NCBI RefSeq assembly: GCF_006345805.1
Contig: NW_021833260.1
Span: 17,369-81,368 of the forward strand
Source: Octopus sinensis
Taxonomy: Eukaryota
DNA length: 64,000 nucleotides
Direction of reading: 5' to 3'
Each line of letters begins with the position of its first letter. Position 1 is the stretch's first letter. The notes under the pieces were generated by a model that saw only the letters and a program-made list of their open reading frames with translations, did not search any database and had not been told where the DNA came from. Both the position numbers and the translations under genes were made by a program. Below are positions 1 through 38,879 of this stretch, piece after piece.

Positions 1-12
1 ATATATATATAA

Positions 13-398
13 CTAGCAGTATCACCCGGCGTTGCTCGGGTTTGTAAGGGAAATAACTATAAAGCATTTTAGAGAGTCATAGCCAAAAACTAGCAAAAAA
101 TACATTAAAAGTGGAAAAAAATTATGGTAAATTTTTTTTAAATCGTTGACACATCGTAGACATTTTTAGAGAGTTACTTCCCTTATATTAAAAAAAATAT
201 GTATTAAAATGGAAAAAAATGATGGTAAATTATTTTAAAATCGTAGACTCGTCGTAGACGCGCGCTAATACCCAGAAGGGCTTGATATGAATCACGACTA
301 TAAGATACCCGGTTTTAGTTAAACTGCACCGCAAAATGTGGGAGTAATTAGAAATCTAAATCGGAGTAGACACACAACTCTTCATTTATATATAAAGA
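13..398 (-). mobile_element. Non-autonomous Helitron-like element
   Basis: On the minus strand it starts A|TCtttatatataaatg and ends with the GC hairpin cccgagcaacgccggg followed by tgatactgCTAG|T. It sits between A and T with no TSD. Nearly the same 3' end occurs at 41477-41504. Confidence 0.75.
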
Positions 399-514
399 TT
401 TCAATACGCAGCAAATAATTCAGGAGAAAATATTTGCGAAGATATTGACTTTATTATTATCTAGTGTAGCAATTTAGAAATATTTTCTCCTGAATTATTT
501 GCTCCTTATTGAAA
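399..514. repeat. Short inverted repeat / mini-MITE
   Basis: Arms of ~37 bp: tttcaatacgcagcaaataattcaggagaaaatattt (399-435) and its reverse complement (478-514), 2 mismatches. Confidence 0.75.
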
Positions 515-797
515 ATTACGAATCAGATGCAGCTCAGACTTCAACGTGACGGGTTGGGGCTCCCCATAATGGTAACGTGTGCTGAGGAAAGTGAGGCTGT
601 AATATCAGTCAAAGGACCGGTCCGCGTCGGTCCAAATATTTGTATGTATGCTGAGAGATTATCTTAGCTCCTTTGCCTCCGGACGATTGACTTATGTAGG
701 TATTATCGGTGTATTTTGGCGATTTAAATAAGAGTTTTGGCTGTTATTTCCAGTAGGTAGAAATACTTGCCATGTCCTTTGATTAATTTGAAAAACA

Positions 798-877
798 GGA
801 GTGGCTGTGTGGTAAGTAGCTTGCTTACCCACCACATGGTTCGGATTCAATCCCACTGCGTGGTACCATGGACAAGT
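798..877 (+). mobile_element. tRNA-derived SINE family A, 5' head only (interrupted)
   Basis: ggagtggctgtgtggtaagtagcttgct...cccactgcgtgg...gacaagt matches the head of the full copy at 24221-24627. Confidence 0.8.
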
Positions 878-1387
878 AGCCAGCGGTGCCAAAATCACAA
901 AGTATGGTAAGCCAGCGGTGCCAAAATCACAAAGTATGGAAGGACAGCGGTGCCAAAATCACAAAGAATGGAAGGCCAACGGTGCCAAAATCACAAAGTA
1001 TGGAAAGCCAGCGGTGCCAAAATCACAAAGTATGGAAGGCCAGCGGTGCCAAAATCACAAAGTATGGAAAGCCAGCGGTGCCAAAATAACAAAGTATGGA
1101 AAGCCAGCGGTGCCAAAATCACAAAGTATGGAAGCCAGCGGTGCCAAAATCACAAAGTATGGAAGGACAGCGGTGCCAAAATCACAAGAATGGAAGGCCA
1201 ACGGTGCCAAAATCACAAAGTATGGAAAGCCAGCGGTGCCAAAATCACAAAGTATGGAAGGCCAGCGGTGCCAAAATCACAAAGTATGGAAAGCCAGCGG
1301 TGCCAAAATAACAAAGTATGGAAAGCCAGCGGTGCCAAAATCACAAAGTATGGAAAGCCAGCCAAAATCACAAAGTATGGAAAGCCA
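878..1387 (+). repeat. 32-bp tandem minisatellite, ~16 units
   Basis: Unit gccagcggtgccaaaatcacaaagtatggaaa. ORF starts at 886/918/950 confirm the 32-bp period. Variant units recur ~223 bp apart (aggacag at 941 and 1164). Confidence 0.95.
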
Positions 1388-1707
1388 CCGCTATGTTTCC
1401 ATACTTTGAGATTTTGGCACCGCTGGCCTTAAATACTTTGTGATTTTGGCACCGCTGGCCTTCCATACTTTGTGATTTTGGCACCACTGGTCTTCCGTAC
1501 TTTGTAATTTTGAAACCGCTAGCCTTCCATACTTTGTGATTTTGGCACCACTGGCTTTCCATACTTTGTGATTTTGGAACCCCTGGCCTTCCCTACTTTG
1601 TGATTTTGGCACCACTGGCTTTCCATACTTTGTGATTTTGGCACCCCTGGCCTTCCCTACTTTGTGATTTTAGCACCGCTGGCCTTCCATACTTTGTGAT
1701 TTTGGCA
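1388..1707 (-). repeat. Same 32-bp minisatellite, inverted, ~10 units
   Basis: Units read ttccatactttgtgattttggcaccgctggc. 1391-1470 is the reverse complement of ~4605-4690, including diagnostic variants. Confidence 0.95.
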
Positions 1708-2296
1708 TTTTCACCGAAAAGTTTACCTAAGAATGTTTCGAAAATTTTCACCAAAAATTTTCCGAGAATTTTCACCGAAAACGATGTCGACGTTTATAGA
1801 CTTCAGCATATGGAGTATATTCGCTATGTGGTTTTTCGAAAATTTTCATCGAAATTTTACACAAAAATTTTCCGACAATTTTCCCCAATAATTTTCCGAA
1901 AACGATGTCGAATATTTTAACCGAAAATTTTAGCCTAAAATTTTTTCAAAATGTTTGCCGAAAATTTTCTACAAAAATTTTTCGAAAATTTTCACCGAAA
2001 ATTTTACCCAAATATTTTTAGAAAATTTTCACAAAAAATTTTCCGAAAATTTTCTATGAAAATTTTACACAAAAATTTTTCGAAAATTTTCAACAAAAGT
2101 TTTTCGAAAATTTTCACCGAAATCTATGTCGACGTTTATAGACTTCAGCATATGGAGCATATTCGTTATATGGTTTTTCAAAAATTTTCACTGAAAATTT
2201 TCCCCCAAAATTTTTCAGAAATGTTCACCGAAAAGTTTACCCAAAAATATGTTATTGCTAAAAATAGATATTTATGTGGTGCAGCTGCTGCTTTCT

Positions 2297-2308
2297 GTGT
2301 ATATATAG
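2297..2308 (+). promoter_or_regulatory. TATA-like box upstream of Rep-like ATG
   Basis: gtgTATATATAg about 39 nt upstream of the ATG at 2339. The same upstream block precedes the minus-strand copy (~3730-3742) and occurs alone at ~2555-2615. Confidence 0.45.
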
Positions 2309-2338
2309 AGTGAATTCTGGTTTACTACTACAGTCAAG

Positions 2339-2458
2339 ATGCCTCACCATCCACGATACACCAGATTTTGCTTTACACTTAACAACTATGACGATGTCGA
2401 CGTTTATAAACTTCAGCATATGGAGCATATTCGTTATATGGCTTTTCGAAAATTTTAA
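2339..2458 (+). pseudogene. rep: Endogenous CRESS-DNA-virus (circovirus-like) Rep N-terminal fragment, copy 1
   Basis: Manual translation MPHHPRYTRFCFTLNNYDDVDVYKLQHMEHIRYMAFRKF*. RCR motif I (CFTLNNY), an acidic helix and a YMVF-like strand occur at the spacing typical of circovirus-like Reps. Truncated before motif II. Confidence 0.8.
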
Positions 2459-3226
2459 CCGAAACTTTTCCCCAAAAATTTTTCGAAAATTTTCACCGAA
2501 AATTTTACCCAAAAATGTTTCGAAAATTTTCACCAAAAATTTTACCCAAAATTTCACTCTTTATATACACATAAAGAAGCCACATAAAAATCTATTTTTA
2601 GCAATAACATAAATTTATTTTTGGGTAAAATTTTCGGTGAACATTTTCGGAAAAATTTTTGGCAAAAATTTTCCGTGAAAATTTTTGAAAAATATTCGGG
2701 TAAAATTTTCGGTGAAAATTTTCGAAAAACTATATAACGAATATGCTCCATATGCTCAAGTCTATAAACGTCGACATCGTTATCGGTGAAAATTTTCGGA
2801 AAAATTTGGGGAAAATTTTCATGGAAAATATTTGGAAAAATTTGGGGAAAATTTTCGTGGAAAATTTTCGGATAATTTTTAGTGAAAATTTTCGAATAAT
2901 TTTTGTGTAAAATTTTCGGTGAAAATTTTCGAAAAACCATATAAAGAATATGCTCCATATGCTGAAGTCTATAAACGTCAACATCGTTTTCGGTGGAAAC
3001 TTTTCGGAAATTATTGGTGAAAATTTTCGAAAAATTTTCGGGTAAAATTTTCGGTGAAAATTTTAGGAAAACTTTTGGAGAAAATTTTCGAGAAATTTTT
3101 GGGTAAAATTTGTGGTGAAAATTTTCGAAAAATTTTTGGGTAAAATTTTCGGTGAAGATTTTCGAAAAATTTTTGGGGAAAATTTTCGGCAAAAATTTTC
3201 AAAAAATTTTTGGGTAAAAATTTCGG

Positions 3227-3346
3227 TTAAAATTTTCGAAAAACCATGTAACGAATATGCTCCACATGCTGAAGTCCATAAACGACGACATCATCATAGT
3301 TGTTAAGTGTAAAGCAGTATCTGGTGTATCGTGGATGGTGAGGCAT
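3227..3346 (-). pseudogene. rep: CRESS Rep N-terminal fragment, copy 2
   Basis: Manual translation MPHHPRYTRYCFTLNNYDDVVVYGLQHVEHIRYMVFRKF*. Confidence 0.8.
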
Positions 3347-3580
3347 CTTGACTGTAGTAGTGCCAAAATCACAAAGTATGGAAAGCCAATTTTTGGTGAA
3401 AATTTTCGAAAAACCATATAACGAATATGCTCAATATGCTGAAGTCTATAAACGTCGACATCGTCATAGTTGCTAAGTGTAAAATTTTTGTGTAAAATTT
3501 TCAGTGAAGATTTTCGGTGAACATTTTCGAAAAATATTTGGAGAAAATTTTCGGTCAAAATTTTTGGGTAAAATTTTCCG

Positions 3581-3700
3581 TTAAAATAATCGAAAAACCA
3601 TATAACGAATATGCTCCATATGCTGAAGTCTATAAACTTCGACATCGTCATAATTGTTAAGTGTAAAGCAGAACCTGGTGTATCGTGGATGATGAGGCAT
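3581..3700 (-). pseudogene. rep: CRESS Rep N-terminal fragment, copy 3
   Basis: Manual translation MPHHPRYTRFCFTLNNYDDVEVYRLQHMEHIRYMVFRLF*, preceded by the TATA-containing block. Confidence 0.8.
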
Positions 3701-4466
3701 CTTGACAGTAGTAGTAAACCAGAATTCACTCTATATATACACAGAAAGCAGCCACATAAAAATCTTTTTTTAGCAATAAATAACATAAATCTATTTTTGG
3801 GTAAAATTTTCGGTGAACATTTTCGAAAAATGTTTGGGGAAAATTTTCCATCAAAATTATTGAAAAATTTTCGGTTAAAATTTTCGGTGAAAATTTTCGA
3901 AAAACCATATAACGAATATGCTCCATATGCTGAAGTGTATTTCGGTTAAAATTTTCGGAAAAATTTTGGGAAAATTATTGTGTAAAATTTTTGGAAAAAT
4001 TTTGGAGAAAATTTTCGAAGAATTTTTGGGTAAAGTTTTCGAGAAATTTTTGGGTAAAATTTTCAGTGAAAATTTTCGAAAAATTAATGGGTAACATTTT
4101 CGGTGATAATTTTCGTTAAATTTTTGGGGAAAATGTTCGCAAAAATTTTCAAGAAATTCTTGGGTAACATTTTCATTGAAAATTTTCTAAAAAATATATA
4201 ACGAATATGCTCCATATGCTGAAGACCATAAAGGTCGACATCGTTTTACGTGAAAATTCTCTGAAAATTTTTGGGGAAAATTTTCGGAAAATTCTTTGTG
4301 AAAATTTTCGAAAAATATTTGGGTAAAATTTTCGGTTAAAAAGTTCCAAAAATTTTTGAAGATTTTCGAAAAATATTTGGGTAAAATTTTCGGTGAAAAT
4401 TTTCGGAAAATTTTTGGTGAAAATTTTCGAAAAATATTTGGGTAAAATTTTCGGTAAAATTTTGAC

Positions 4467-5209
4467 TGCCAAAATCACAAAGTATGGAAACCTAACGGTG
4501 CCAATATCACAAAGTATGTAAGGCCTGCAGTGCCAAAATCACAAAGTATGGTAAGCCAGCGGTGCCAAAATCACAAAGTATGGAAGGCCAGCGGTGCCAA
4601 AATCACAAAGTATGGAAGGCCAGCGGTGCCAAAATCACAAAGTATTTAAGGCCAGCGGTGCCAAAATCTCAAAGTATGGAAACATAGCGGTGCCAAAATC
4701 ACCAAGCATGGAAGGCCAACGGTGCCAAAATCACAAAGTATGGAAAGCCAACGGTGCCAAAATCACAAAATATGGAAAGCCAGCGGTGCCAAAATCACAA
4801 TGTATGGAAAGCCAGCGGTGCCAAAATCACAAAGTATGGAAACCTAGCGGTGCCAAAATCACAAAATATGGAAAGCTAGCAGTGCCAAAATCACAAAGTA
4901 TGGAAAGCCAGCGGTGCCAAAATCACAAAATATGGAAAGCCAGCGGTGCCAAAATCACAATGTATGGAAAGCCAGCAGTGCCAAAATCACAAAGTATGGA
5001 AACCTAGCGGTGCCAAAATCACAAAATATGGAAAGCTAGCAGTGCCAAAATCACAAAGTATGGAAAGCTAGCAGTGCCAAAATCACAAAGTATGGAAAGC
5101 TAGCAGTGCCACAATCACAAAGTATGAAAAGCTAGCAGTGCCAAAATCACAAAGTATGGAAAGCTAGCAATGCCAAAATCACAAAGTATAGAAAGCTAGC
5201 AATGCCAAA
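4467..5209 (+). repeat. 32-bp tandem minisatellite, ~23 units
   Basis: Same unit as 878-1387. Distal units drift gccagcgg > gctagcag > gctagcaa. Confidence 0.95.
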
Positions 5210-5268
5210 GATTTATGTGGATGCTTATGGTATCTGATATGGATAGAATAGGCCACACAAATACAACT

Positions 5269-5491
5269 TTAACTCTTGAACATTCAGATTTCTTTGTCAA
5301 ATGTAAACCTTATTTATTCACATTTTTTTGAATTAATCATGCATTTTCTCATAGCTTCACAATTTCTATGATGTGGTTGTTTATTTTTAGAATGACCTTG
5401 TAGGGTACGTGTGAGGCATTGGATCTGCTCAGTTTTCACATAAAAGGAGAATATCTGGACCAGGAATGGCTGGATTAAATGCTAGAGTTAA
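5269..5491 (-). mobile_element. Degenerate piggyBac-like MITE
   Basis: TTAA-flanked. Diverged reverse complement of the copy at 23684-23910. Confidence 0.6.
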
Positions 5492-5495
5492 GCCC

Positions 5496-5800
5496 ACTAT
5501 AGCGTCGGGCCGACCAAAGCCTTGTGAGTGGATTTGGTAGACGGAAACTAAAAGAAGCCCGTCGTATGTGTGTATGTGTGTGTATATGTTTGTGTGTCTG
5601 GGTTTCTCCCTCCAGCATCACTTGACAACCGATACTGATGTGTTTACGTCCCCGTAACTTAGCAGTTCAGCAAAAAGAGACCAACAGAATAAGTACTAGG
5701 CTTACAAAGAATAAATCCTGCGTCGATTTGCTCGACTAAAGGCGGTGCTCCAGCATGGCCGCAGTCAAATGACTGAAACAAGTAAAAGAGTAAAAGAGTA
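5496..5800 (+). mobile_element. SINE family A, body and 3' tail
   Basis: actatagc...gggccgaccaaagccttgtgagtggatttggtagacgg...gactgaaacaagtaaaagagtaaaagag. Resumes the family A sequence a few nt after the point where the head at 798-877 stops. Confidence 0.85.
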
Positions 5801-7957: not shown

Positions 7958-8341
7958 TAATATATATATATATATATGTATAAATATATATATTTATATA
8001 TAAGCATGCACATATATATATATATATATGTATGCGTGTGTATATATATTCATACATACATATGTATACATATGTATATACATATATATATAAGCATAGA
8101 AATACATATACTCATATATATATATACATGCACTTATATGCATATATATACATATACACATGTATAGATACTTACAAGCATACATACATACATATACATA
8201 CATACATATACATACATGCACACACCACATACATACATACATACATACATACTTACATACATACATGCATACATACATACATACATACATGCATGTATGC
8301 ATACATACATACATACATACATACATACATACATACATACA

Positions 8342-8373
<32 letters not shown>

Positions 8374-8375
8374 CA
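7905..8375. repeat. (TA)n/(TACA)n microsatellite
   Basis: Direct reading. Confidence 0.9.
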
Positions 8376-8765
8376 AACTTTTGTTAAAAGTTATACCCTC
8401 TGGATATATGCGTAAAGTTTATATTATCTGTTTTATTTCGATATGTAAATAATTTTTACATTTTTATTACAAAGATATCAGGAGCCACCCTGCCCTTACA
8501 GGAAATTCATCAAATTCTCGCCAATTCATGTATAATTTTATCTTATTAGAATTTTGAATCTCTGTCAGAAAGTTAGCTTTTGATATCAAATTCTTTGTTT
8601 TGCTTTAATTTCCTTCGCCCCGTTTACGATGTAATCGAATATAGGCCCGCACACAAATTTCATGTCTTCTGCTTATAGTAGACAGGATTATTATTATTAT
8701 TATTAAAATTATTATTATTATTATTATTATCATAATAATAATTATTATTATTGTTGTTGTTGTTG

Positions 8766-22365: not shown

Positions 22366-23163
22366 ATTCTTTTCTAATCTAGGCACAAGGCCCGAAATTT
22401 TGGGGAACAGGCCAGTCGATTAGGTCGACCCCAGTACGCAACTGGTACTCTTGTATATGAAAAGCAAAGTCAACCTCGGCGGAATTTGAACCCAGAACGT
22501 AAAGACAGATGAAATATCGCTAAGCACTTAGCACGGTGTGCTAACAATCTTGCCAACTCGACGCCTTAAGAAAATTAAGAATAATATTCTTTTCTACTCT
22601 AGGCACAAGGCCCGGAATTTTGGGGGGAGGTAACCAGTCGATTAGGTCGACCCCAGTACGCAACTAGTACTCTTGTATATGAAAGGCAAAGTCAACCTCG
22701 GCGGAATTTGAACCCAGAACGTAAAGACTGATGAAATATCGCTAAGCACTTCGCACGGTGTGCTAACAATCTTGCCAACTCGACGTCTTGAGAAAATTAA
22801 GAATAATATTCTTTTCTACTCTAGGCAGAAGGCCCGGAATTTTGGGGGAGGTAACCAGTCGATTAGGTCGACCCCAGTACGCAACTGGTACTCTTGTATA
22901 TGAAAGGCAAAGTCAACCTCGGCGGAATTTGAACCCAGAACGTAAAGACAGATGAAATATCGCTAAGCACTTCGCACGGTGTGCTAACAATCTTGCCAAC
23001 TCGACGCCTTAAGAAAATTAAGAATAATATTCTTTTCTACTCTTGGCACAAAGCCTGGAATTTTGGGGGGAGGTAACCAGTCGATTAGGTCGACCCCAGT
23101 ACGCAACTGGTACTTAATTTATTGATCCCGAAAGAATGAAAGGCAAAGTCGACCTCGGCGGAA
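22366..23163 (-). repeat. Tandem array of ~221-bp SINE-B-derived units (3.6 copies)
   Basis: Unit starts at 22366, 22586, 22808 and 23029. Confidence 0.9.
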
Positions 23164-24627: not shown

Positions 24628-24823
24628 AACTAGTGGAGACGAGAATGCATTTAAAGGTTTATTACTTCACGCTCATCAGGGCTTAAGTCGTCAGTTATTT
24701 CTGTTTCGTTCATTCAGATTCGTTTAACACTCACTACTGACGTCCTTTTGTTCTTCTCCTTCCACCAGAAGTCTCTTTCGCTGCTGCTGGTCAACTTCCT
24801 AGCGAGCCGGCAGCGAAGTTCCT

Positions 24824-25778
24824 ATTTCTTTACTACCCACAAGGGGCTAAACACAGAGGACAGACAAACAAGGACAGACAAACGGATTAAGTCGATTACA
24901 TCGACCCCAGTGCGTAACTGGTACTTAATTTATTGACCCCAAAAGGATGAAAGGCAAAGTCGACATCGGCGGAATTTGAACTCAGAACGTAGCGGCAGAC
25001 GAACTACCTATTTCTTTACTACCCACAGGGGGCTAAACACAGAGGACAGACAAACAAGGACAGACAAACGGATTAAGTCGATTACATCGACCCCATGCGT
25101 AACTGGTACTTAATTTATCGACCCCGAAAGGATGAAAGGCAAAGTCGACCTCGGCGGAATTTGAACTCAGAACGTAACAGCAGACGAACTACCTATTTCT
25201 TTACTACCCACAAGGGGCTAAACACAGAGGGGACAAACAAGGACAGACAAACGGATTAAGTCGGTTACATCAACCCCAGTGCGTAATTGGTACTTAATTT
25301 ATCGACCCCGAAAGGATGAAAGGCAAAGTCGACCTCGGTGGAATTTGAACTCAGAACGTAACGGCAGACGAACTACCTATTTCTTTACTACCCACAAGGG
25401 GCTAAACACAGAGGGGACAAACAAGGACAGACAAACGGATTAAATCGATTACATCGACCCCAGTGAGTAACTGGTACTTAATTTATCGACCCCGAAAGGA
25501 TGAAAGGCAAAGTCGACCTCGGCGGAATTTGAACTCAGAACGTAACGGCAGTCGAAATACCTATTTCTTTACTACCCACAAGGGTCTAAACACAGAAGAC
25601 AGACAAACAAGGACAGACAAACGGATTAAGTCGATTACATCTAACCCCAGTGCGTAACTGGTACTTAATTTATCGACCCCAAAAGGATGAAAGGCAGAGT
25701 CGACCTCAGCGGGATTTGAACTCAGAACGTAATGCCAGACGAAATACGGCTACGTATTTCGCCCGCCGCCTTATCGCT
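24824..25778 (-). mobile_element. Five-unit head-to-tail SINE-B concatemer within a 15-bp TSD
   Basis: ~185-bp units (ctatttc at 24822, 25008, 25193, 25377, 25561). ggcagcgaagttcct occurs at 24809-24823 and 25779-25793. Confidence 0.9.
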
Positions 25779-38462: not shown

Positions 38463-38879
38463 TATTTCTTTACTACCCACAAGGGGCTAAACACAGAGGT
38501 TACGAACAAGGTCAGAAAAATGGATTAAGTCGATTATATCGACCCCATTGTGTAACTGCTACTTAATTTATCGACCCCGAAAGGATGAAAGGCAAAGTCG
38601 ACCTCGGCGGAATTTGAACACAGAACGTAACGGCAGACGAAATACCTATTTCTTTACTACCCACAAGGGGCTAAACACAGAGGTTACGAACAAGGACAGA
38701 CAAACGGATTAAGTCGATTACATCGACCCCAGTGCGTTATTGGTACTTAATTTATCGACCCCGAGAGGATGAAAGGCAAAGTCGACCTCGGCGGAATTTG
38801 AACTCAGAACGTAACGCCAGACGAAATACCGCTAGGCATTTCGCTCGGCGTGCTAACTTTTCTGCCAGCTCACCGCCTT
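38463..38879 (-). mobile_element. SINE-B dimer
   Basis: Two ~184-bp units joined at cagacgaaatacctatttc, the same junction as in 24824-25778. Confidence 0.9.

What the first reader, a model, noticed from the sequence alone, without database searches (positions are those of the whole stretch)
1780..4245. Amplified endogenous circovirus-like (CRESS DNA virus) Rep N-terminus hidden inside a satellite
Seen: a frame below the ORF-track cutoff reads MPHHPRYTRFCFTLNNYDDVDVYRLQHMEHIRYMVF. It occurs with its ATG at 2339(+), 3346(-) and 3700(-). Shorter pieces occur at ~1782(+), ~2125(+), ~2720-2780(-), ~2930-2990(-), ~3405-3485(-, FTLSNYDDVD...), ~3895-3936(-) and ~4195-4243(-). Two ATG copies carry a TATA-like box ~39 nt upstream. 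Established: circovirus-like Reps begin with RCR motif I (W/F-C/V-FTLNN-Y/P), then an acidic helix and a Y-hydrophobic-hydrophobic-F/Y-G-x-E strand before motif II (HLQG). Inference: this is the promoter plus first ~36 codons of an ssDNA-virus rep gene, or of a CRESS-related HUH transposon such as a Replitron, turned into a building block of a host tandem repeat. It could be an integrated defective or subgenomic rolling-circle molecule, a non-autonomous HUH element, or a source of antiviral small RNAs.
Basis: partly seen in the sequence, partly recalled or inferred. Interest (0 to 1): 0.92.

Follow-up and report, generated by a model that had tools for sequence, protein, structure and literature searches.

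The report
Viral Rep scrap in octopus satellite
A 200-base scrap of a small circular DNA virus (its TATA box and the first 36 codons of its replication gene) was caught in a host minisatellite and has been copied, as decaying passenger DNA, to dozens of places in what appears to be an octopus genome that also holds larger fossils of related viruses.

Summary
A 199-nt unit (R: 91 nt with a TATA box plus 36 codons) occurs 11 times in window 1781-4244. It is CRESS-virus Rep: an HMM of outside Reps scores it 28.3 bits (shuffles at most 4.7), and its nearest relatives are Rep fossils in the same genome, two of them beside capsid genes, one with a TAGTATTAC stem-loop. So the parent was a virus, not a Replitron. 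R is not local: 254 pieces at 38 loci. Every 3'-complete copy stops at codon 36, 198 of 199 running into a self-complementary 37-bp minisatellite; none continues into Rep. R has no origin stem-loop, arrays have no fixed ends or target duplications, and the copies drift almost neutrally (pN/pS 0.84, stops, frameshifts). The 37-bp/32-bp satellite also occurs without R (19 of 25 loci examined). Best reading: one capture into a host composite minisatellite, then spread by host templated copying (0.6). Rivals: LINE-borne transduction (0.17) and a helper-Rep-amplified virus/host minicircle (0.12). Precedents exist in tobacco (GRD) and carnivores; I found no report for cephalopods. New variant of a known kind.

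The parts
796..876 (+). 5' half of a host SINE-like repeat, interrupted by the array
   Evidence: 83% to the first 101 nt of an uninterrupted copy in L024; SINE label recalled
878..1385 (+). 32-bp minisatellite S32, 16 copies
1386..1707 (-). S32, about 10 copies, folded back on the first block
1707..4466 (.). Matrix of the AT-rich 12/13/37-bp minisatellite S37 built on the palindrome GAAAATTTTC (33 exact copies), in both orientations
   Evidence: one stretch folds with z -3.6
1781..1836 (+). 3' piece of unit R (unit positions 144-199)
2126..2178 (+). 3' piece of R (147-199)
2248..2446 (+). Whole unit R: 91 nt upstream with TATA-like box at 2300, then 36 codons of CRESS Rep with RCR motif I (2339-2446), fused to S37
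2553..2611 (-).
2725..2783 (-). 3' piece of R (141-199)
2932..2987 (-). 3' piece of R (144-199)
3239..3361 (-). R from position 77, ATG at 3346, no TATA box; joined to a single S32 unit (3360-3386)
3409..3483 (-). 3' piece of R (125-199)
3593..3779 (-). Nearly whole R, ATG at 3700, TATA-like box at 3739
3900..3940 (-). 3' piece of R (159-199)
4196..4244 (-). 3' piece of R (144-192)
4467..5209 (+). S32, 23 copies
5210..5495 (+). 286 nt of host DNA (F) carried along with S32; the same S32+F join occurs at five other loci at 81-97% identity, where F runs on for over 1 kb
5496..5788 (+). 3' half of the interrupted SINE-like repeat; about 10 nt of the reference copy are missing between the halves, no target duplication

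Best explanation
Unit R is a fossil piece of an octopus-associated CRESS DNA virus that rides as a passenger in a host composite minisatellite. Step 1 (shown): viruses of this lineage integrated into the germ line several times; larger fossils with Rep, capsid and origin lie elsewhere in the genome. Step 2 (inferred from shared break points): once, the TATA region and first 36 rep codons of a sister virus were joined to the already existing S37 minisatellite. Step 3 (pattern shown, mechanism inferred): the S37/S32/R mosaic was amplified in place and copied as blocks to new sites by host templated DNA repair or replication template switching, helped by the self-complementary S37, which gives inversions, variable ends, small target deletions and carried-along flanks. 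Step 4 (shown): the copies decay close to neutrally and encode no working protein.
For: Identity: HMM 28.3 bits vs shuffles at most 4.7; the top 3 of 173 proteins in blastp are this genome's own Rep fossils (56.6, 48.9, 39.3 bits; best outside 33.9). Fossils: whole Viral_Rep domains at C3:47.24 Mb and C14:52.36 Mb, helicase parts in 9 matches; capsid-like genes beside the C3 and C16:4.80 Mb Reps; TAGTATTAC stem-loop at C16. One capture: of 254 R pieces at 38 loci, 199 reach the 3' end, 198 of these run into S37-like sequence (loose test) and 0 read on as G-x-E; a genome-wide pattern through G-x-E hits only the C3 and C14 fossils. Satellite exists without R: 19 of the 25 loci in the first 100 of 483 exact S32 matches have no R, 15 of the 19 have S37; neither satellite resembles six fossil stretches beyond shuffles. 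Host-type spread: no common ends or target duplications (middle of output cut); shared carried flanks (F; a 385-nt palindromic element at three loci; 150-400 nt at two locus pairs) and inverted flank duplications; loci within 10 Mb share the closest copies, minimum distance 0.028 vs 0.073, 0 of 5000 permutations. Neutral decay: of 126 near-complete coding copies 17 are frameshifted; of 101 without indels 27 have stops; pN/pS 0.84; variability equal at the three codon positions; against the C3 fossil pN 0.26, pS 0.75.
Against: The direct parent was not found: the closest fossil is only 68-69% identical in DNA, so where viral sequence begins upstream of the TATA box is unsure (upstream alignment to C3: 10 of 2000 shuffles; to C14 and C16: not significant). 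The proximity signal rests on 10 near pairs, 6 of them from one cluster on C15, and is absent for mean distance (989 of 5000). The S32+F block looks like a retrocopy at other loci, and two arrays abut CR1-like LINE pieces. 24 of 160 copies carry a NANTATTAC nonamer just before the ATG. That the satellite is older than R is inferred; loss of R from some arrays would look the same. pN/pS comes from non-independent pairs over 36 codons, and 65 of 101 copies still have ATG and no stop.
Confidence: 0.6

Rival explanations
1. Same viral scrap, but the arrays were dispersed mainly as passengers on read-through RNAs copied by LINE reverse transcriptase, as proposed for the circovirus fossils of carnivores.
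For: The S32+F block recurs at five other loci with variable left ends, and in three of them ends at the same SINE-like 3' end with a short repeat tail (SINE label recalled); at C1:23.63 Mb this block carries R and S37 on its left. Two arrays abut CR1-like fragments. R brings a TATA box. Precedent: PMC6372831 (passages).
Against: Most array ends seen have no tail and no target duplication. The window keeps only 286 nt of F and no tail. Inverted flank duplications and the nearness of the closest copies fit DNA-level copying better.
Confidence: 0.17
2. R plus AT-rich host satellite began as a virus/host chimeric circle (like geminivirus minicircles or defective DNAs), was replicated by the Rep of an infecting helper virus, and re-integrated at many sites as scrambled concatemers.
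For: Geminivirus minicircles join the viral intergenic region to AT-rich host DNA (PMC6293997, passages). R is exactly intergenic edge plus rep start. A helper lineage existed. A subclade at several loci has TAATATTAC before the ATG. The single-copy loci on four different chromosomes differ by only 0.7-2.9%.
Against: All geminivirus minicircles kept the origin stem-loop; R folds no such hairpin (z 1.0 and -0.2, against -4.1 for the C16 origin). The nonamer variant is a minority (24 of 160), nested in the tree, while the commonest form matches the C3 fossil at that place. Break points do not gather at the would-be nick site. R-free arrays spread in the same way.
Confidence: 0.12
3. The arrays are kept because opposed R copies with TATA boxes make double-stranded or small RNAs against CRESS viruses (not exclusive of the best explanation).
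For: Opposed, 92% complementary arms of 231 nt at 2324-2554 and 3131-3361, two TATA-bearing copies facing each other. Small RNAs map to yam geminivirus fossils (PMC5014472, passages).
Against: Copies drift by about 10% from each other and are only 68-69% identical to the other fossils; no sign of sequence constraint.
Confidence: 0.06
4. R is the 5' end of a Replitron or another HUH transposon, and the array a non-autonomous derivative.
For: Replitron Reps are distantly linked to CRESS Reps (PMC10288648, passages). The family is dispersed and multi-copy.
Against: The nearest full-length relatives have the SF3 helicase that Replitrons lack and sit beside capsid genes. No terminal direct repeats or fixed ends.
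Confidence: 0.03
5. Contamination or mis-assembly.
For: The window lies on an unplaced 81-kb contig; two other unplaced loci look like duplicates of each other.
Against: 32 of the 38 loci lie on 11 chromosome-scale contigs amid host repeats; runs under five organism labels hold at least 5 of 17 sampled words, and contigs from four of them were laid on R.
Confidence: 0.01

Closest known systems
Geminivirus-related DNA (GRD2/3/5) of Nicotiana (PMC5014472, passages read)
   Same: Truncated CRESS rep plus intergenic fragment, amplified as repeats in a host genome and evolving neutrally.
   Different: GRD keeps an origin-like sequence and sits as direct repeats on one or two chromosomes; R has no origin hairpin, is only 199 nt, is interleaved in both orientations with two host minisatellites, and is spread over 11 chromosome-scale contigs of an animal.
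Endogenous circoviral elements of carnivores, CVe-Carnivora-4 (PMC6372831, passages read)
   Same: One germ-line capture of a rep piece, later multiplied by host machinery.
   Different: 10-20 dispersed copies tied to LINE-1; here over 250 pieces in satellite mosaics at 38 loci with no single carrier element found.
CRESS-DNA fossils of bivalves, gastropods and crustaceans (PMC6069186, PMC4573495, passages read)
   Same: CRESS rep fossils in marine invertebrates, molluscs included.
   Different: 1-4 elements per mollusc species in the table seen; no cephalopod in the main text of PMC6069186; no satellite amplification in the passages seen.
Dragonfly larvae associated circular virus-10 Rep and unnamed CRESS Reps
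   Same: Closest named virus to the C3 fossil Rep among the proteins whose names I looked up: 40% identity over residues 8-270.
   Different: Too distant to be the parent; 8 of the 150 best hits were looked up for names, so a closer named virus may be among the rest.
BCTIV virus/host minicircles (PMC6293997, abstract and passages read)
   Same: Viral intergenic DNA joined to AT-rich host DNA.
   Different: Those are episomal, always keep the origin and are copied by the helper virus; R is chromosomal and has no origin hairpin.
Replitrons (PMC10288648, passages read)
   Same: Y1 HUH Rep distantly related to CRESS Reps.
   Different: No helicase, short terminal direct repeats, plants, algae and protists; R's relatives have helicase and capsid.

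Membership tests
Endogenous element of a CRESS DNA virus | Homology to the HUH Rep of CRESS viruses (RCR motif I region) | tested here: met
   Custom HMM 28.3 bits vs shuffles at most 4.7; Pfam PF02407 only hit but below cut-off
Endogenous element of a CRESS DNA virus | Nearest full-length relatives have motifs II and III, an SF3 helicase and a capsid gene | tested here: met
   C3 fossil Rep 272 aa, PF02407 E 2.6e-23, PDB Rep hits E 2e-14; capsid-like ORF with Arg-rich start, no Pfam hit but Atlas feature score 0.95 to Circo_capsid clusters, a lead; C16 capsid 38% to it
Endogenous element of a CRESS DNA virus | Integrated in host chromosomes and inherited | tested here: met
   38 loci, 32 on chromosome-scale contigs; held by runs under several organism labels; one junction identical in a run labelled organism B
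Circoviridae in the strict sense | Ambisense Rep/Cap genome with a nonamer stem-loop origin (definition recalled) | tested here: inconclusive
   Met by the C16 fossil, which is a relative, not the parent; R itself has neither capsid nor origin
Circoviridae in the strict sense | Rep falls inside the circovirus/cyclovirus clade | not tested
   No tree with reference viruses was built; best named hit is an unclassified CRESS virus at 40%
Replitron | Rep without fused helicase | tested here: not met
   Nearest full-length relatives carry Walker A, B and motif C region; R is too short to test directly
Replitron | Short direct repeats at fixed termini | tested here: not met
   No shared ends or terminal repeats among the arrays
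Defective or satellite CRESS replicon / GRD-type repeat | Truncated rep with adjoining intergenic DNA, in multiple repeats | tested here: met
Defective or satellite CRESS replicon / GRD-type repeat | Origin stem-loop with nonamer | tested here: not met
   No hairpin; nonamer only in 24 of 160 copies, as a nested subclade
Defective or satellite CRESS replicon / GRD-type repeat | Circular forms copied in trans by a helper virus | not testable with these tools
   Needs circular-DNA sequencing
Non-autonomous Helitron/HUH or cut-and-paste transposon | Conserved termini, with or without target duplication (definition recalled) | tested here: not met
   Variable ends, no target duplication, host flanks carried

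The most novel reading that the evidence does not exclude
An animal counterpart of the geminivirus virus/host minicircles: a CRESS virus of octopus captured a host minisatellite, its Rep amplified the chimera outside the chromosomes, and repeated re-integration seeded a virus-branded satellite family, whose opposed TATA-bearing copies may now yield small RNAs against the virus lineage.
Probability: 0.12. Interest if true: 0.85.

Novelty: new variant of a known kind. Interest (0 to 1): 0.48.

Why it matters
It shows a non-retroviral DNA-virus fragment becoming a standard module of a dispersed animal satellite, at more than ten times the copy number given for carnivore circovirus fossils. The follow-up also ties an unclassified CRESS lineage to octopus as host, with two fossils holding Rep and capsid and one an origin; my searches found no report of CRESS fossils in cephalopods. 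R is a unique 199-nt tag inside otherwise unalignable repeats, so it lets one trace how composite minisatellites move through a large mollusc genome. If the minicircle or small-RNA reading were true, it would be a new route of virus-driven repeat birth in animals.

Tried and rejected
PDB search with the 36 residues: nothing. The 560-residue open frame after one R copy (C1:51.15 Mb) is R and S37 running into a CR1-like reverse transcriptase, not a longer Rep. Viral origin of S32 or S37 (S32 read backwards looks a little like helicase motif C): no alignment to six fossil stretches beat shuffles, best 11 of 200. Nonamer before the ATG as a working origin: no hairpin, minority, nested. Target duplications or common termini: none in the rows seen (middle of the output was cut). 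Window as an allelic copy of C1:23.63 Mb: only the S32+F end is shared. Search for an empty site with window 520-800: that flank is itself a dispersed repeat, next best 83%, so no empty site could be identified. Viral contig scan with the C3 Rep: 1 locus, 41% over residues 9-95, not examined further. Homologue search with the first 100 Rep residues: 20 proteins, at most 52%. Expression: no RNA holder listed; run X13 is only guessed to be RNA, so nothing is concluded. A genome-wide search with the capsid was not completed, so further capsid fossils may exist. Earlier findings of this scan: none. Literature searches without a relevant paper; they cover only open PMC papers and bioRxiv, and no supplementary tables were read, in which octopus hits of large screens might be listed.

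Full report
Observation. The window's first 6 kb hold a 4.6-kb block (878-5495) made of three parts: a 32-bp minisatellite (S32) in blocks at 878-1385(+), 1386-1707(-) and 4467-5209(+); an AT-rich 12/13/37-bp minisatellite (S37) built on the palindrome GAAAATTTTC; and a 199-nt unit, R. Using 2248-2446 as query, 11 pieces of R appear between 1781 and 4244 and none elsewhere in the window. Three copies have the ATG and two of these the TATA-like box 39 nt upstream.

Identity. Pfam gives Viral_Rep as sole hit, but below its cut-off (E 0.004-0.045), and the PDB gives nothing, as expected for 36 residues. A profile built from 90 of 145 outside Reps scores the peptide 28.3 bits, against -0.1 reversed and at most 4.7 for the 962 of 1000 shuffles reported. 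The genome itself holds the nearest relatives. A family search found two whole Viral_Rep domains among 12 candidates and a search with the helicase part nine matches. The fossil at C3:47.24 Mb has a Rep with motifs I-III and Walker A and B, cut short at its end, and a capsid-like ORF; it is rearranged. The fossil at C16:4.80 Mb has Rep and capsid in opposite directions, a doubled intergenic region and a TAGTATTAC stem-loop, with part of the endonuclease domain missing. The C14:52.36 Mb piece lies inside a Merlin-type transposase. In blastp these three rank first among 173 proteins. R is 68-69% identical to C3 and C14 in DNA, with far more silent than replacement differences (pS 0.75, pN 0.26): it comes from a sister virus that was under selection as a protein. 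A predicted protein of Octopus vulgaris is 86% identical to the C3 helicase; with recalled octopus SINEs in the flanks, this points to an octopus host (inference). The closest named virus among the 8 proteins looked up is Dragonfly larvae associated circular virus-10, at 40%.

Extent. The peptide search returned 150 scored matches of 228 candidates; an exact 23-mer added three loci. In the 38 loci examined, all chosen for holding R, there are 254 pieces; 32 loci are on 11 chromosome-scale contigs and 6 on unplaced contigs, two of which look like duplicates of each other. Runs under organism labels A-E hold at least 5 of 17 sampled words; contigs of labels B, C, D and E were laid on R, and of the 12 loose ends shown (of 24) none reads on into rep. 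One loose end in a label-B run is letter for letter the junction at C13:60.5 Mb. Whether the labels are distinct species is not known to me.

One capture. 199 pieces reach the 3' end of R; 198 continue in S37-like sequence by a loose test, and none as G-x-E. A genome-wide pattern through G-x-E hits only the C3 and C14 fossils. A recurrent half-unit starting near position 144 is shared by many loci. So one join and a few early rearrangements were propagated; the direct parent is not in this assembly as far as these searches reach.

The satellite is not viral and does not need R. The S32 core has 483 exact matches; the first 100 fall in 25 loci, 6 with R and 19 without, 15 of the 19 with S37 (two of the 19 look like duplicates). 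S32 has a host context of its own, the F block, found at five other loci. Neither satellite aligns with six fossil stretches better than shuffles.

How it spread. The arrays have no shared ends and no target duplications in the rows seen (output cut in the middle). The window's block splits a SINE-like repeat with about 10 nt lost and carries 286 nt of F. Other loci share carried flanks or sit in inverted duplications of their flanks. Variant classes are shared between loci, so blocks with several copies were moved together. Loci within 10 Mb share the closest copies (minimum distance 0.028 vs 0.073; 0 of 5000 permutations), but 6 of the 10 such pairs come from one C15 cluster and mean distance shows no effect (989 of 5000). 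S37 is self-complementary and folds better than its shuffles (z -3.6). These are the marks expected of templated repair or template switching (established knowledge, recalled); that this is the mechanism is inference. Against it, the S32+F block resembles a retrocopy elsewhere and two arrays abut CR1-like pieces, which keeps LINE transduction alive.

No sign of Rep-driven mobility or coding function. R folds no origin hairpin (z 1.0; -0.2 for a nonamer-bearing copy; -4.1 for the C16 origin). A NANTATTAC nonamer stands before the ATG in 24 of 160 copies, mostly as one nested subclade, while the commonest form matches the C3 fossil there; break points do not gather at it. Of 126 near-complete coding copies at 32 loci, 25 have indels (17 frameshifts); of the other 101, 27 have stops and 65 keep ATG and an open frame; pN/pS among copies is 0.84 and the three codon positions vary alike. 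Expression could not be judged.

Comparison and novelty. Truncated, repeated CRESS rep fossils are known from Nicotiana (GRD; PMC5014472, passages), host-multiplied ones from carnivores (10-20 copies, LINE-1; PMC6372831, passages), and CRESS fossils from bivalves, gastropods and crustaceans (PMC6069186, PMC4573495, passages). Replitrons lack the helicase (PMC10288648, passages); geminivirus minicircles always keep the origin (PMC6293997, abstract and passages). What differs here is the form, a 199-nt origin-less viral module woven into host minisatellites and spread genome-wide, and the host. Searches for octopus or cephalopod CRESS fossils and for virus-derived satellites found no relevant paper, within an open-access library and without supplements. 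Verdict: real, correctly recognised as CRESS Rep, most likely a passive passenger; new variant of a known kind, interest 0.48.

Noticed in passing
L044 (G000:C16:4.80 Mb), about 20-2340: More-than-unit-length CRESS fossil: opposed Rep and capsid, doubled intergenic region, TAGTATTAC stem-loop; part of the endonuclease domain is missing.
   Followed up: partly
L024 (G000:C3:47.24 Mb), about 3030-5480: Rearranged CRESS fossil with Rep and capsid-like ORF; a perfect 27-bp hairpin lies upstream of Rep (z -11.6).
   Followed up: partly
L027 (G000:C14:52.36 Mb), 4654-4966 and 8088-8762: About 98 codons of Rep sit inside a Merlin/ISXO2-type transposase; parvovirus NS1-like fragments lie within 3-4 kb.
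   Followed up: partly
L045-L051 (C19, C3:3.28 Mb, C29, C1:45.6 Mb, C17, C16:38.96 Mb): Further helicase-only Rep fragments, 39-84% to the C3 Rep; the C29 one has an 18-bp tandem expansion near motif C.
   Followed up: partly
L021 5541-6900 (G000:C1:51.15 Mb): R and S37 read in frame into a CR1-like reverse transcriptase, 560 open codons, downstream of a fragment that looks like a Penelope element (recalled).
   Followed up: partly
L026 4400-4785, L032 4978-5356, L033 4263-4646: A 385-nt element with long inverted ends sits directly upstream of R at three loci on three chromosomes, each near a 22-bp satellite; an older copy adjoins an R-free array in L079.
   Followed up: partly
L059, L076, L080, L083, L089: S32 plus about 1.1-1.4 kb of host DNA is repeated at five loci at 87-94% with variable left ends; three end at the same SINE-like tail, like retrocopies.
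   Followed up: partly
L058/L059 13.3-19.0 kb, L082, L085: Arrays flanked by inverted duplications of host DNA at 95-98% identity.
   Followed up: no
window 11-400 and 520-800: 11-400 has ends like a non-autonomous Helentron-type element (recalled, not tested); 520-800 is a dispersed repeat with many copies at 80-83%.
   Followed up: no
window 22366-23114, 24808-25747, 38463-38830: Tandem arrays of 184-222-bp units that look SINE-derived (label recalled).
   Followed up: no
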